From an uncultured Eubacteriales bacterium (GTDB taxonomy: Bacteria; Bacillota; Clostridia; Christensenellales; CAG-138): a stretch of 58,501 bases of DNA. The DNA lies in NCBI GenBank assembly GCA_902789675.1, contig CADAPG010000003.1, forward strand, positions 1 through 58,501, read 5' to 3'. Positions 4,601 through 32,501 of this stretch are shown here, in pieces. Position 1 is the stretch's first letter; each line of letters begins with the position of its first letter. The position numbers and the translations under genes are program-made. The notes under the pieces are model-generated. The model made no database searches and was not told the DNA's origin. It saw only the letters and a program-made list of their open reading frames with translations.

Positions 4601-6253
4601 TTGGCACGACGCGCATTGTACCGCGAATACCGTCCCGAGACCTTCAGAGAGGTCGTCGGGCAGGACCATATCACCACCATTCTGAAAAATCAGGTGCGGG
4701 AGAATAAGCTTTCCCACGCGTACCTGTTCTGCGGTTCGCGCGGAACGGGCAAGACGACCTCGGCAAAGATCCTGTCCCGCGCGGTCAACTGCCTGGATCC
4801 GAAGGACGGCGAGCCCTGCGGCGCATGCGCCGCCTGTCGGCTTGTCAAGGCGGGCAGCGCCGACGTGATCGAGATCGACGCCGCGTCCAACAACAGCGTG
4901 GACAACGTCCGCACGCTGATTGAGCAGGCGCAGTTCGCGCCGCTGGAGCTCAGGTACCGCGTGTTCATCATCGACGAGGTGCACATGCTTTCGAACGCGG
5001 CGTTCAACGCGCTTCTGAAAACGCTCGAGGAGCCGCCGAAGCACGTCCTGTTCATCCTTGCGACGACCGAGCCGCAGAAGCTCCCCGCGACCATCATTTC
5101 GCGCTGTCAGCGCTTCGATTTTCACCGTCTCACCATCGCGCATATCGTGGCGAATCTCACCGCCGTGCTCGAAAAGGCGGGGGCGAGCATCGAGCCGAAC
5201 GGGCTTCGGCTGATCGCCCGCGCGGCGGACGGCGGCATGCGCGACGCGCTGTCGCTTGCCGACCAGTGCCTGTCCTATGCGGGAAACACCGTTTCCGAGC
5301 AGGACGTTCTGAACGCGCTCGGCACGGTCTCCTCGGCGGTGCTGGAGGATACCGCAGGCGCGCTGCTCTCCGGCAGCGCAAACGACGCGGTGCGCGCGCT
5401 TGACGAGGTCGTGCGAAACGGCCGCGATCTCGGCGTGTTCCTTGCCGATCTTGCAAAGCATTTCCGGGCGCTGCTGCTCGCAAAGACCTGCGGCGACTGC
5501 GCGGACCTTCTGGACTGCACCGACGATCAGATGCAGCGGTATCTGAAGGTCGCAAAGGGCGCGGACGAAGCGCGGATCCTTTACGCCATGGAGCAGATCC
5601 TTGCGGTGCAGAGCAAGCTCCGGCTGTTCCCCGCGCCGCGGATCCCGATTGAAACGGCGTTTTTGCGCATCTGCCGCCCGGCGGACGACGCAAGCCTTTC
5701 CGCGCTCGAAGCACGCGTGGCGCTTCTCGAATCCCGTCCCGCGGCGGCCGCACCGCAGAAGGCAGCGGTTCCCGCAGAGGACGTCAACCCCGGCGTCCCG
5801 CCTGTAAACGCTGATAAAAAGCCTTCTCCTCGAGGGGAAGGTGTCTCACAGAGCGAGGCGGATGAGGTGTCTTTTCCCGTAACAAACGCCGACCCCGGCG
5901 TCCCGCCCGTAACGAACGCCGACCCCGGCGTTCCGCCCGAACCGGCGAACGAGGCGGAAACGCTCTGGGCGCAGGCAAAGCAGAAGATCATGGAGATGAA
6001 CCCGATGGTTTATTTCTATGTGAAGGAAACGCGCGGGACGGCGCTCCGTGACGGCGTGCTGACGGTCGAGTTTCCGGCGACGCAGGAGAGCATGCTGAAC
6101 GGCATGCGCGCGGCGCGGAATCTGCAGATCGCGAAGAACGCGATCGAGGCGGTGCGACCCAAGACGGAGCTTTCGTTCCGGCTTGCGGCGCTCGCAAACG
6201 AAAACGAAGAAAAGCTCAAAGCGCTTTTCGGAAGCAGTTTAACCATCAAATAA
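4601..6253 (+). CDS. dnaX: DNA polymerase III subunit gamma/tau
   Basis: ALYREYRPETFREVVGQ, Walker A GSRGTGKTT, zinc module, IIDEVHML, SRC motif; TTG start after GAAAGG. Confidence 0.97.
   Translation: MARRALYREYRPETFREVVGQDHITTILKNQVRENKLSHAYLFCGSRGTGKTTSAKILSRAVNCLDPKDGEPCGACAACRLVKAGSADVIEIDAASNNSVDNVRTLIEQAQFAPLELRYRVFIIDEVHMLSNAAFNALLKTLEEPPKHVLFILATTEPQKLPATIISRCQRFDFHRLTIAHIVANLTAVLEKAGASIEPNGLRLIARAADGGMRDALSLADQCLSYAGNTVSEQDVLNALGTVSSAVLEDTAGALLSGSANDAVRALDEVVRNGRDLGVFLADLAKHFRALLLAKTCGDCADLLDCTDDQMQRYLKVAKGADEARILYAMEQILAVQSKLRLFPAPRIPIETAFLRICRPADDASLSALEARVALLESRPAAAAPQKAAVPAEDVNPGVPPVNADKKPSPRGEGVSQSEADEVSFPVTNADPGVPPVTNADPGVPPEPANEAETLWAQAKQKIMEMNPMVYFYVKETRGTALRDGVLTVEFPATQESMLNGMRAARNLQIAKNAIEAVRPKTELSFRLAALANENEEKLKALFGSSLTIK
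5817..5869 (+). repeat. palindromic repeat copy inserted in frame in the dnaX linker
   Basis: AAAAGCCTTCTCCTCGAGGGGAAGGTG..CGAGGCGGATGAGGTG closely matches the intergenic copies at 30592-30646 and 10725-10771. Confidence 0.8.
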
Positions 6254-10433: not shown

Positions 10434-10475
10434 ATGCGGGTCGACCCTCTCTGCAACCGTATGTGTACAGCTAAA

Positions 10476-10822
10476 GGCCTTCCTCTTGAGGGGAAGCGGA
10501 TATCGTGTACCGTCGTCTCCTACAGACCGCTTCTACGGTATCTTTGCGCGCCGAAGGCGCATATCGTGCCGCAAGGTATATCGTGCCGCAAGGCATATCG
10601 TGAATCCCGCAGGGATTTATATCGCGCAGCCGTAGGGGAAGATCGTATCTTCCCGTTCCGCTGTTGCGGCGGGCGGATGATATCCGCCCCTACGGGTTCA
10701 TTGGCAAGAATGTCGCCTGCCCTTGCCTTCCCCTTGAGGGAAAGGTGGCGAGAAACGAGCCGGATGAGGTGAACACGCAGAAAAGCGTCAAGCTTTTCGC
10801 GGATGGATGAATTGTGCCTGCG
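10476..10822. repeat. composite cluster of REP-like and hairpin repeats
   Basis: CTTCCTC/GGGGAAG hairpin at 10479, ATATCG-spaced mini hairpins at 10548-10626, inverted GTAG-REP pair at 10632-10654 and 10671-10693, and a ~98 bp unit at 10725-10822 shared with 30596-30697. Confidence 0.8.
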
Positions 10823-30246: not shown

Positions 30247-30420
30247 CCTTTCATCTCGAGAACGATCGTTCGTTCCTTTTCACCCCGATTATATCAAAGG
30301 ACGCGACAGTTTGCAAGGCTGCGCAAAGGATTCTCTTTATGTCCGCAGGACATTTCATGCCGCATGACGGGGCATCCTCCCGAACGCCCCGCATGACGGC
30401 AGGCAATACATGATACAAAA

Positions 30421-30697
30421 AGATCCTTCGTCGCCGTTCCGGCTTCTCAGGATGACACAACAGGGGTGCGCGGCATTACAGGTTCCGCTGTTACGGGCGG
30501 ATGCGATCCGCCCCTACGGTACATTTGCGCGCCTCATGCGCGTGACAATTCCCCCCCCTTTACACAAGGGGGGCAAGGGGTTCGCGCAGCCAAAAGCCTT
30601 CTCCTCCGAGGAGAAGGTGGCGAGGTTTGCCGAGCCGGATGAGGTGGACACGCCGAAAAGCGGAACGCTTTTCGCGGATCAATGAATTGCGCCTGCG
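30421..30697. repeat. second composite cluster of REP-like repeats
   Basis: AGATCCTTCG..CTCAGGATGACA at 30421-30457, reverse GTAG-REP at 30495-30517, C8/G6 hairpin at 30551-30573, and a unit at 30596-30697 homologous to 10725-10822. Confidence 0.8.
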
Positions 30698-30812
30698 CCG
30701 CATAACGGGGCGCAGGGAAGCGTGCAGCGCACAATTTCACGGGAGAGGGAAGATTTTTCTTCCCTTTTTCCGATCGCTTTGTTATAATATAAGGGTTAAG
30801 GAGAGTGTGCTT

Positions 30813-32501
<1,689 letters not shown>

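What the first reader, a model, noticed from the sequence alone, without database searches (positions are those of the whole stretch)
5786..5940. An intergenic palindromic repeat inserted in frame inside dnaX
Seen: 5817-5869 is a close copy of the intergenic element at 30592-30646 and 10725-10771 (CCTTCYCC hairpin, GGTG, CGAG.CGGATGAGGTG). Here it is translated (KKPSPRGEGVSQSEADEV) and lies between copies of a 30-bp tandem repeat (VTNADPGVPP) in the linker after the clamp-loader domains. Established: coding-inserted palindromic elements are known (Rickettsia RPEs). Inference: an analogous element family that can contribute peptide sequence to an essential replisome protein in this lineage.
Basis: partly seen in the sequence, partly recalled or inferred. 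Interest (0 to 1): 0.75.

Follow-up and report, generated by a model that had tools for sequence, protein, structure and literature searches.

The report
Repeat hairpins translated inside dnaX linker
In this rumen Clostridia genome the floppy linker of the essential replication protein DnaX is built largely from small selfish DNA hairpin repeats that normally lie between genes, a known kind of event (as in Rickettsia) that here recurs and turns over quickly across a whole genus.

Summary
Window 5817-5869 is a full-length, in-frame copy of a two-hairpin repeat. A profile built from 20 intergenic copies, without the dnaX copy, hits it at E 3.6e-11. It is the only one of 30 genomic copies with coding sequence on both sides.

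The flanking 30-bp "tandem repeat" is itself repeat-derived. There are three decayed copies of a GTAG-tagged REP whose 20-nt core occurs exactly 16 times in the genome. So about 165 nt (55 codons) of the linker is repeat DNA.

The stretch is not an assembly artefact. Three database proteins, a metagenome contig and contigs from three other studies carry it, with small in-frame variants.

AlphaFold gives the region pLDDT about 30, between two folded domains.

In the genus, 10 of 23 dnaX linkers hold repeat modules of several families. The nearest species (2.8% divergent in the flanks) has a different module at the same place. No clean empty site exists. A second species carries an independent copy of the same element.

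The element fits the BoxC/PIT "intrastrand triplex" layout with a hairpin in its second loop, and occurs in several phyla.

It is an RPE-like, probably neutral capture. Earlier notes of this scan report similar in-frame repeats on other DNA.

The parts
4601..6253 (+). dnaX (DNA polymerase III tau-type subunit). The start is probably TTG 4601, which has a GGAAAGGA-like site upstream; the stop is TAA 6251-6253.
   Evidence: NCBIfam PRK05563 at 509 bits and TIGR02397 at 423 bits. Pfam DNA_pol3_delta2, DNAX_ATPase_lid and DNA_pol3_gamma3 cover residues 18-358. Start candidates are listed.
5735..5944 (+). Predicted disordered linker, residues 376-445 counted from 4610. It lies between clamp-loader domain III and the folded C-terminal domain.
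   Evidence: AlphaFold2 on a 38-sequence alignment gives pLDDT 29-34 and no secondary structure for 376-445. The flanking helix 363-375 and the domain 446-540 (pLDDT 84-92) are well predicted.
5774..5802 (+). REP-a, a degenerate copy of the GTAG-tagged REP. GTAG has become GCAG and the stem carries 2 changes.
   Evidence: The REP profile built from 20 intergenic copies aligns model positions 4-31 here, 17.3 bits. The 20-mer scan finds it with 2 mismatches.
5816..5869 (+). Module 1, the two-hairpin (BoxC/PIT-like) element, read as KKPSPRGEGVSQSEADEV.
   Evidence: nhmmer E 3.6e-11, full length, from a profile built without this copy. It folds as two hairpins at -19.0 kcal/mol, like the intergenic copies.
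5822..5841 (+). Hairpin 1: pyrimidine arm CCTTCTCC (5822-5829), loop, purine arm GGGGAAGG (5834-5841).
5843..5859 (+). Hairpin 2: GTCTC / GAGGC stem around a 7-nt loop. This is the variable, covarying part of the family.
   Evidence: In other genomes there are 75 distinct hairpin-2 sequences, and 65 of 75 fold more stably than their own shuffles.
5860..5867 (+). Conserved tail GGATGAGG. It is a near mirror image of the purine arm and the candidate third strand of a triplex. It supplies a TGA in the -1 frame.
5878..5907 (+). REP-b, first 30-bp tandem unit, read as VTNADPGVPP. GTAGGGG has decayed to GTAACAA.
   Evidence: Exact 20-nt REP core; profile hit at 18.0 bits; TRF.
5908..5937 (+). REP-c, second 30-bp tandem unit, read as VTNADPGVPP.
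30592..30646 (+). Intergenic sibling of module 1, upstream of argS, inside a mosaic of other hairpin modules (30490-30700).
   Evidence: Best nhmmer hit, E 1.9e-13; sequence.
10722..10771 (+). Intergenic sibling of module 1, preceded by two GTAG REPs in opposite orientation (10631-10705).
   Evidence: nhmmer E 1.9e-12; sequence.

Best explanation
About 165 nt of the dnaX linker is a mosaic of non-coding genomic repeats that were captured in frame and are now translated. The mosaic has one two-hairpin element of a BoxC/PIT-like family (module 1). It is flanked by three decayed copies of a GTAG-tagged REP, two of them as a 30-bp tandem. These elements normally lie between genes. They persist here for two inferred reasons. 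The linker between the clamp-loader domains and the C-terminal domain is intrinsically disordered and tolerant of length changes. The frame in use carries no stop and gives Pro/Gly/Asp/Glu-rich peptide like the native linker. Once a repeat sits there, the site probably keeps changing by further insertion, tandem duplication and exchange with other genomic copies. That would explain why sister lineages carry different modules. What is shown: family membership, in-frame translation potential, restriction to one lineage, population variants, recurrence in the genus, and predicted disorder. What is inferred: the insertion mechanism (RAYT-type transposition for the REPs, recombination or gene conversion for the swaps), neutrality for DnaX function, and triplex folding of module 1.
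For: Family membership. The profile without the dnaX copy hits it full length at E 3.6e-11, and there are 30 copies. The REP 20-mer core is exact at 16 sites, and 33 sites match within 3 mismatches.

Coding status. Only the dnaX copy has an open frame with coding-type GC3-GC2 on both flanks (0.24 and 0.36). The other 29 fail this test. Their long spanning ORFs are antisense-like or lie upstream of real starts.

The sequence is real. P0001, P0002 and P0003 carry the peptide with A/V/T variants. Contig L032 differs at 10 of 750 nt. Contigs of 3 DNA runs from 3 studies span 5650-6050 in one piece. One of them has a 24-nt in-frame extra partial REP unit.

Lineage restriction and turnover. 22 of 22 other orthologs lack module 1. 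G018 differs at 40 of 1413 nt outside the linker but has an unalignable block of about 125 nt inside it. That block matches other multi-copy repeats of G000.

Recurrence. 7 linkers have 11-40 dispersed hits in G000. 3 more carry palindromic modules that I recognised by eye, with 3-5 hits each. A second, independent module-1 copy lies in the dnaX linker of another species, L051/L052, at E 2.9e-8, on the same strand and in the same frame but at another position.

Tolerance. pLDDT is 29-34 over residues 376-445.

Other genes. A 1225-aa membrane protein has 4 GTAG-tagged hairpins under my strict pattern, read VGDADPGVP in the same frame as in dnaX; the looser 20-mer scan gives 7 matches in that ORF. 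The RAYT-like gene has one REP inside it.

Candidate mobiliser. One RAYT-like gene (PF01797 at 38.7 bits, NF047646 at 76.1 bits) has REPs directly downstream.
Against: No clean empty site, target-site duplication or insertion boundary was found, so the insertion itself is inferred from family membership and phylogenetic distribution.

The RAYT link is circumstantial. The gene scores below the NCBIfam cut-off (76.1 against 80). The REPs flanking it belong to other subfamilies than the one in dnaX.

Repeat-rich genomes do not always have dnaX insertions. G017 has 36 strict module-1 copies and G008 has 18, yet both have plain linkers.

The clade holding all 10 repeat-bearing linkers has weak support (82/55), so the number of independent gains is uncertain.

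All genomes are metagenome bins. Neutrality for DnaX is untested. The G000 and G018 linkers lack the PW[DE] motif that 18 of 23 orthologs keep, which could mean a functional cost or change.
Confidence: 0.85

Rival explanations
1. The repeat block has been exapted. The translated peptide, or the linker length it provides, is now a selected functional part of tau, for example a new partner-binding segment that replaces the lost PW[DE] motif.
For: The G000 and G018 linkers are both exactly 77 codons despite an unalignable block of about 125 nt. Every REP-derived copy that I read in dnaX linkers and in the C20 protein uses the frame giving VGDADPGVP-like peptide, although by my reading of the sequence 5 of 6 frames are open. 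The changes seen inside module 1 between strains are 3 synonymous changes and 2 replacements at one codon.
Against: The peptide is absent from 22 of 22 other species. It is replaced by an unrelated module in the nearest one. The region is predicted disordered. The variants are too few for a dN/dS test. Frame uniformity can come from a filter against Arg-rich or stop-containing frames without any positive function.
Confidence: 0.08
2. The element acts as a recoding device. T AAA AAG at 5815-5821, followed by hairpin 1 and a -1-frame TGA inside GGATGAGG, would give a truncated gamma-like DnaX by -1 frameshifting, as in E. coli dnaX.
For: AAA AAG lies in the zero frame directly 5' of an 8-bp hairpin. 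The -1 frame reads 14 codons and then TGA. The dnaX copy has five A where intergenic copies usually have four.
Against: The spacer between AAG and the stem is 0-1 nt. By my recall, not from a call, known stimulators sit 5-9 nt downstream. The heptamer is not X XXY YYZ, because the P-site codon would re-pair on TAA. I saw no upstream Shine-Dalgarno-like stimulator in the sequence. AAAAG and the TGA belong to the family consensus, so they are present for reasons unrelated to dnaX. The independent copy in L051/L052 is aligned only from model position 7 and encodes ...ATASPQ..., with no Lys-Lys site. The nearest species lacks the element altogether.
Confidence: 0.03
3. Assembly artefact: a de Bruijn graph path wandered through a repeat and stitched an intergenic copy into dnaX.
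For: The genome is a 147-contig bin. Repeats sit near contig ends: 11 of 83 GTAG hairpins lie within 300 nt of an end.
Against: The dnaX copy is not identical to any other copy; the best match is 93% over 28 nt. The frame is kept. Independent assemblies reproduce it with their own SNPs: P0001-P0003, L032, and single contigs of runs X2, X9 and X13 from three studies spanning the whole stretch.
Confidence: 0.01
4. Reverse direction: the dispersed intergenic copies derive from a dnaX fragment that became mobile.
For: None beyond the shared sequence.
Against: The family occurs in many genomes and phyla whose dnaX lacks it. Hairpin-2 lengths range from 10 to 29 nt with no 3-nt periodicity, which fits a non-coding element. 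Intergenic copies carry no dnaX flanks.
Confidence: 0.01

Closest known systems
Rickettsia palindromic elements (RPE; Ogata et al. 2000, 2002, as summarised in the review PMC10969869, of which I read passages)
   Same: These are palindromic repeats of a multi-copy family inserted in frame in unrelated genes, including housekeeping genes. They are translated as extra peptide at positions judged compatible with the fold.
   Different: RPEs are about 150 bp according to that review, and belong to Rickettsia families. Here the units are 30-55 nt, belong to REP and BoxC-like families of Clostridia, and are piled up as a mosaic at one disordered linker. They are not scattered through folded domains.
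Intragenic GTAG-tagged REPs (Di Nocera et al. 2013, PMC3733652; abstract and passages read, supplement searched)
   Same: The flanking units are GTAG-type REPs: a GTAG tag followed by a 9-bp G+C-rich stem and a 4-nt loop. The family has tens of copies, lies mostly between genes, and comes with a RAYT-like gene in the genome. That paper reports REPs inside genes, many of them replication or repair genes, and notes that insertions may be neutral in flexible linkers.
   Different: That survey has no occurrence of Firmicutes or Clostridi- in its main text. It has no dnaX entry among the held supplement files, only dnaE of R. conorii. In dnaX the tag has decayed to GTAA or GCAG, and the unit is tandemised with a 30-bp period.
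BoxC / PIT / TM-ECO intrastrand-triplex repeats (Holder et al. 2015, PMC4666352; abstract and passages read)
   Same: Module 1 has the same three-block layout: a pyrimidine arm, a purine arm, and a third G-rich block that mirrors the purine arm. Compare CCTTCYCC / GGRGAAGG / GGATGAGG with CCCTCNCCC / GGGNGAGGG / GGGNGAGGG. Both are multi-copy and found in several phyla. That paper links the motif to local genome rearrangement, which matches the fast turnover seen here.
   Different: The second loop here is a 10-30-nt covarying hairpin, not 3 nt. The arms differ by an A/T position. TM-ECO is reported as always intergenic in E. coli K-12. Triplex folding of this variant is untested, and one of the 8 triplets is non-canonical in the commoner C/G arm variant.
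BIMEs (bacterial interspersed mosaic elements of E. coli; recalled, not read here)
   Same: Intergenic copies sit in mosaics of REPs in alternating orientation plus other short conserved motifs.
   Different: The module sequences differ, the host is a Clostridia lineage, and the mosaic here also occurs inside a coding region.

Membership tests
GTAG-tagged REP (Di Nocera 2013) | An unpaired GTAG tag at one end of a short palindrome (stem 5-13 bp, loop 2-20 nt). | tested here: met
   The genomic family consensus is GTAG followed by a 9-bp stem and a 4-nt loop. I found 83 GTAG-tagged hairpins in G000. The dnaX copies keep the stem and loop, but the tag has decayed to GTAA or GCAG.
GTAG-tagged REP (Di Nocera 2013) | Multi-copy and predominantly extragenic. 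| tested here: met
   Of the 83 GTAG hairpins, 5 lie inside ORFs: 4 in C20:5383-9060 and 1 in the RAYT-like gene. The GACGCC subfamily has 33 matches within 3 mismatches.
GTAG-tagged REP (Di Nocera 2013) | Association with a RAYT (Y1 HUH) transposase gene flanked by REPs. | tested here: inconclusive
   There is one Y1_Tnp gene, with PF01797 at 38.7 bits (above the cut-off) and NF047646 at 76.1 bits (below the cut-off of 80). GTAG REP-type palindromes lie directly downstream in the read sequence, one of them found by the strict pattern, and one REP lies inside the ORF. These belong to other subfamilies than the dnaX units. Activity cannot be tested here.
BoxC / PIT / TM-ECO intrastrand triplex motif (Holder 2015) | Three consecutive blocks: a pyrimidine arm, a complementary purine arm, and a third block that mirrors the purine arm by the purine-motif code (G on G-C; A or T on A-T). 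| tested here: met
   With arms CCTTCTCC / GGAGAAGG, 8 of 8 triplets are canonical. With the commoner CCTTCCCC / GGGGAAGG, 7 of 8 are. At the next stem position, C..G goes with third-block G in 24 of 25 copies, and T..A goes with T in 36 of 40. The copies are related, so this is not an independent-events test.
BoxC / PIT / TM-ECO intrastrand triplex motif (Holder 2015) | Short loops (N3-6 and N3) as in the TM-ECO consensus. | tested here: not met
   The second loop is a structured hairpin of 10-30 nt. I therefore file module 1 as BoxC-like, not as TM-ECO.
BoxC / PIT / TM-ECO intrastrand triplex motif (Holder 2015) | Forms a stable intrastrand triplex (shown for TM-ECO by CD and NMR). | not testable with these tools
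   No tool here models triplexes.
Rickettsia palindromic elements (RPE) | Sequence membership in the RPE families of Rickettsia, about 150 bp. | not tested
   No RPE sequence was compared. The size (30-55 nt) and the host differ, so the likeness is one of behaviour only.
Programmed -1 frameshift cassette of dnaX (E. coli type) | An X XXY YYZ slippery heptamer, a downstream stem-loop at a spacing of about 5-9 nt, and a nearby -1-frame stop. | tested here: not met
   The heptamer is T AAA AAG, which is not X XXY. The spacer is 0-1 nt. A -1 stop is present after 14 codons. The spacing rule is recalled, not taken from a call.
DnaX (tau-type clamp-loader subunit) | N-terminal AAA+ clamp-loader domains I-III plus a C-terminal extension. 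| tested here: met
   TIGR02397 at 423.5 bits (cut-off 250), PRK05563 at 509 bits (cut-off 400), and Pfam domains over residues 18-358. A folded C-terminal domain covers 446-540.

The most novel reading that the evidence does not exclude
The tau linker is not merely a passive dump. It may be a preferred, self-perpetuating landing and exchange site for triplex- and REP-type elements across this genus. Their DNA or RNA structures inside an essential replisome gene might matter, for example by pausing ribosomes or polymerases to tune tau output, or by yielding a truncated gamma-like product through the AAA AAG, hairpin and -1 TGA arrangement. The rapid linker turnover would then be adaptive and not neutral.
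Probability: 0.06. Interest if true: 0.8.

Novelty: new variant of a known kind. Interest (0 to 1): 0.5.

Why it matters
The finding extends protein-coding selfish palindromes from Rickettsia and a few Proteobacteria to gut and rumen Clostridia, and to an essential replisome subunit.

The disordered tau linker turns out to be a recurrent sink. At least five repeat families have been captured there, duplicated and swapped, within about 3% sequence divergence.

For annotators, it explains odd low-complexity peptides such as VGDADPGVP, PSPRGEG..DEV and APLAQGSQ in DnaX and other proteins of these bins.

It also delimits a widespread, unnamed two-hairpin relative of the BoxC/PIT triplex motif. Its three-way covariation makes the triplex idea testable with a simple oligonucleotide experiment.

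Tried and rejected
- **Rfam.** There were no matches at gathering threshold in the whole window. At E up to 10 over 30400-30800 there were only weak hits elsewhere (sroE at 20.9 bits against a gathering score of 51) and none on the element.
- **Empty site.** A global alignment of the G000 and G018 linkers gave no boundary, only an unalignable block.
- **Genome-wide scan for multi-copy 14-mers inside 1093 GC3-confident ORFs.** It returned Walker-A and Pro/Thr-linker words and missed both known positives, dnaX and C20. I therefore draw no enrichment or "dnaX is special" claim from it.
- **Hairpin-2 flush-stem count.** My first count was too strict, 18 of 90. I replaced it by folding against shuffles.
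- **RNA evidence.** An RNA-labelled library (X15) has a 151-nt contig over 5819-5969. Contigs cannot show transcription and DNA carry-over is possible, so I make no expression claim.
- **Earlier scan notes.** The look-up by sequence found nothing.
- **Frameshift reading.** Considered and set aside; see the rival explanations.
- **Polarity of the G000/G018 swap.** The G018-type block also occurs in L017, L050 and L054, which suggests that the G000 block is the derived one. The tree is unresolved, so this stays a guess.
Full report
**What is there.**
The best-holding sequencing runs are labelled bovine or gut metagenomes.

The gene is dnaX. Its N-terminal 358 residues match the clamp-loader domains (TIGR02397 at 423 bits, PRK05563 at 509 bits, and the Pfam delta2, lid and gamma3 domains). 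The likely start is TTG 4601 and the stop is TAA 6253. AlphaFold2 on a 38-sequence alignment predicts a folded C-terminal domain at residues 446-540 (pLDDT 84-92). Between that domain and domain III lies a stretch, residues 376-445, with pLDDT 29-34 and no secondary structure. The finding lies entirely within that stretch.

**The observation.**
Tandem Repeats Finder gives 5876-5939, period 30, 2.1 copies.

I built an nhmmer profile of the core element from 20 intergenic copies, leaving out the dnaX copy. It hits 5817-5869 over the whole model (positions 1-52) at E 3.6e-11 against the genome. This hit ranks 11th among 30 hits with E below 1e-3.

Similarity to any single copy is modest: 25-28 nt at 92-93%. 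The match is therefore to a family consensus.

**Anatomy of module 1.**
All copies share four parts in the same order:
- a hairpin with conserved arms, GCCTTCYCC and GGRGAAGG;
- the dinucleotide TG;
- a second hairpin whose sequence varies while its pairing is kept (for example GGC/GCC, GCC/GGC, GTCAC/GTGAC, GGTCCC/GGGATC, ACCGC/GCGGT);
- a conserved tail, GGATGAGGTG.

The dnaX copy keeps both hairpins, with GTCTC/GAGGC in the second, at -19.0 kcal/mol.

In other genomes there are 75 distinct second hairpins. Of these, 65 fold more stably than their own shuffles, with mean -4.56 against -1.45 kcal/mol under DNA parameters. Their lengths run from 10 to 29 nt with no 3-nt periodicity. The family is therefore non-coding by nature.

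**Coding versus intergenic.**
I tested each of the 30 copies for an open frame across the copy and 240 nt on each side, with a coding-type GC3-minus-GC2 contrast. Real genes here give about 0.4. Only the dnaX copy passes, at 0.24 and 0.36.

The long ORFs that span other copies are of three kinds: Arg-rich antisense-type frames, runs of repeats, or stretches upstream of real starts such as argS and a LOG-family gene. The census is therefore 1 coding copy of 30.

**The tandem repeat is a second repeat family.**
The 20-nt core of the 30-bp unit occurs exactly at 16 sites in the genome and within 3 mismatches at 33 sites. Outside dnaX it is preceded by GTAGGGG. This makes a GTAG-tagged REP with a 9-bp stem and a 4-nt loop, as defined by Di Nocera et al. 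(PMC3733652, abstract and passages).

A profile built from 20 intergenic copies aligns three places in dnaX: 5774-5801, 5886-5906 and 5914-5936, at 15.5-18.0 bits. Each is borderline on its own at genome scale, with E from 0.013 to 0.082. In dnaX the tag has decayed to GCAG or GTAA.

G000 holds 83 GTAG-tagged hairpins of several subfamilies. It also has one RAYT-like gene. That gene scores 38.7 bits on PF01797 and 76.1 bits on NF047646, just under the cut-off of 80. REPs lie directly downstream of it.

**Is the sequence real?**
Three database proteins from other assemblies carry the module-1 peptide, each with its own differences. P0001 reads SEVDEV. P0002 has a divergent N-terminus. P0003, with 26 member sequences, reads SETDEV and has an extra unit, PVGDADPGVLP.

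A metagenome contig, L032, differs at 10 of 750 nt. Its three changes in or next to the element are synonymous.

Logan contigs of three DNA runs from three studies each span 5650-6050 in one piece, with 4, 10 and 7 differing letters. The X9 contig also has a 24-nt in-frame insertion behind 5898, which is another partial REP unit. An assembly artefact is therefore excluded, and the array varies in copy number in nature.

**Orthologs.**
All 41 genomes searched have dnaX. I extracted 23 orthologs from the same genus. Their linkers cannot be aligned with each other. Most are Pro/Glu-rich and contain a PW[DE] motif: 18 of 23 have it, and it is absent in L001, L002, L004, L009 and L023. None of the other 22 has module 1.

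I then compared each linker with the G000 genome outside dnaX:
- Seven linkers (L001, L002, L007, L008, L012, L017, L018) have 11-40 dispersed hits.
- Three more (L005, L009, L019) carry hairpin modules that I recognised by eye, with 3-5 hits each.
- The other 13 have 0-6 hits, on non-palindromic Pro/Glu-coding words.

The modules belong to at least five families, read for example as VGGDDLGAP, APLAQGSQ, SPCTGEAR, QSPSVTA and RDGTAVTKR.

All 10 repeat-bearing linkers fall in one group of 13 on a DnaX tree built from residues 1-370. That branch is weakly supported, at 82/55.

Strict-pattern module-1 counts per genome in the genus range from 0 to 55, and the reversed-pattern control gives 0 everywhere. 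Species with plain linkers mostly have 0-1 copies, but G017 (36 copies) and G008 (18 copies) are exceptions.

**No empty site, but a swap.**
G018 is the closest species. It differs from G000 at 40 of 1413 nt outside the linker, 27 of them synonymous. It shares the two 30-bp units. Yet it has an unalignable block of about 125 nt where G000 has REP-a plus module 1, and both linkers are 77 codons long.

The G018 block matches other multi-copy repeats. It recurs in L017, L050 and L054. This hints that the G000 state is the derived one.

**Independent recurrence.**
Two identical metagenome loci from another species, L051 and L052, are 54% identical to the query in the C-terminal 250 residues. They carry a module-1 copy at another position in the linker, on the same strand and in the same frame, read SPQGEGGSRSETDEA. 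The nhmmer score is 27.4 bits, E 2.9e-8, against the set of linkers.

**Other genes.**
In G000 a 1225-aa protein with a signal and membrane segment (C20:5383-9060, minus strand) has a C-terminal low-complexity tail. That tail holds four GTAG REPs under my strict pattern, plus weaker copies and a 21-bp tandem. All are read VGDADPGVP, the same frame as in DnaX.

The RAYT-like gene itself holds one REP in frame, read PVGADTIRP.

**What module 1 resembles.**
The 80 loci listed are mostly Clostridia bins (Oscillospiraceae, Acutalibacteraceae, Ruminococcus, Lachnospiraceae) plus named strains such as Gemmiger formicilis and Pseudoflavonifractor. They also include Alpha-, Gamma- and Deltaproteobacteria, Planctomycetes and Acidobacteria.

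I read the abstract and passages of Holder et al. 2015 (PMC4666352).

The tail GGATGAGG is a near mirror of the purine arm. Read antiparallel to the arm, it gives 8 of 8 canonical purine-motif triplets with GGAGAAGG and 7 of 8 with GGGGAAGG. The next stem pair covaries with the next tail base: C..G goes with G in 24 of 25 copies, and T..A goes with T in 36 of 40. The copies are related, so this is support and not proof.

The second loop is a hairpin and not 3 nt, so I call the element BoxC-like and do not file it as TM-ECO. According to Holder et al., purine-motif triplexes do not form in RNA. If the fold is real, it is therefore a DNA structure.

**How it most likely works.**
Repeats that spread between genes occasionally land in, or are recombined into, coding DNA. 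They survive only where the protein tolerates them and the frame is open.

Module 1 has a conserved TGA in one forward frame. The other open forward frame gives KSLLLEGKVSHRARRMR, by my reading of the sequence. The frame in use gives acidic, Pro/Gly-rich peptide like the native linker. The REP is open in 5 of 6 frames, but it is always seen in the VGDADPGVP frame. I infer a selective filter from these patterns.

Once resident, the repeats probably promote further change. That is consistent with the swap between G000 and G018, with the 24-nt variant, and with the link between such motifs and local rearrangement that Holder et al. report.

**The frameshift idea.**
T AAA AAG, then a hairpin, then a -1 TGA after 14 codons recalls E. 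coli dnaX. It fails on three counts. The spacer is 0-1 nt. The heptamer is not canonical. Both AAAAG and the TGA are family features that also occur between genes.

**Novelty.**
In-frame palindromic repeats are established: RPEs (review PMC10969869, passages) and intragenic REPs, many in replication and repair genes (PMC3733652). That survey does not mention dnaX, Firmicutes or Clostridia in its text. Its held supplement files list only dnaE for "polymerase III". A full-text search for RPE together with dnaX found no report of repeats in dnaX among the 12 papers listed, of 657 that held at least two of the four terms; I saw only the listing. This scan has noted similar in-frame repeats on other DNA.

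What is new here is threefold: the host gene and lineage, the mosaic and its fast turnover across a genus, and a BoxC-like variant with a structured second loop.

Noticed in passing
L031:1459-1482 (G000:C96:5921-5944), inside the RAYT-like ORF L031:1300-1806: A GTAG REP lies in frame inside the genome's only RAYT-like (Y1 transposase) gene, read PVGADTIRP. It sits just before the part of the protein that matches the family profile. GTAG REP-type palindromes follow the stop codon in the read sequence (one met my strict pattern). The family score (76.1 bits) falls just under the NCBIfam cut-off of 80, perhaps because of this insert.
   Followed up: partly
L057:5383-9060, minus strand (G000:C20): A 1225-aa protein with a signal and membrane segment has a C-terminal low-complexity tail built from units of about 114 nt. 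Each unit holds a GTAG REP read as VGDADPGVP. The tail also has a 21-bp tandem read as ADPGVPQ.
   Followed up: partly
window 5735-5944 and the ortholog linkers L001-L023: A short PW[DE] motif, usually PPWEE or PPWDE, is kept in 18 of 23 dnaX linkers of the genus, including distant species. It is missing in G000 and G018, whose linkers are mostly repeat-derived. It could be a short binding motif of tau. Its function is unknown.
   Followed up: partly
window 10440-10820 and 30480-30700: Intergenic mosaics chain several hairpin modules: GTAG REPs in both orientations, a CCCCCCTTTACACAAGGGGGG-type hairpin, module 1, and a terminator-like GAAAAGCG..CGCTTTTC hairpin followed by GAATGAATTG. The layout resembles the BIMEs of E. 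coli.
   Followed up: partly
window 30650-30815, upstream of argS: No Rfam family, including T-box, reaches gathering score anywhere in the 58.5-kb window, although an aminoacyl-tRNA synthetase gene of a Clostridia genome starts at about 30814.
   Followed up: no
L016 (G001:C152) and G001:C3:11077-12423: Genome G001 holds two dnaX-like loci. One is nearly identical to that of G019 and has a frameshifted C-terminus plus a TAG. The bin is listed with 6% contamination, so this may be a mixed bin.
   Followed up: no
L060, L063, L065, L084, L099, L107, L121, L133 (genome-contig loci): The same two-hairpin element with the GGATGAGG tail occurs in Proteobacteria, Planctomycetes and Acidobacteria records, with slightly longer arms (CCTTCTCCCC / GGGAGAAGG) and a GGATGAGGGG tail. 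It appears to be a pan-bacterial repeat type with no match in Rfam.
   Followed up: partly
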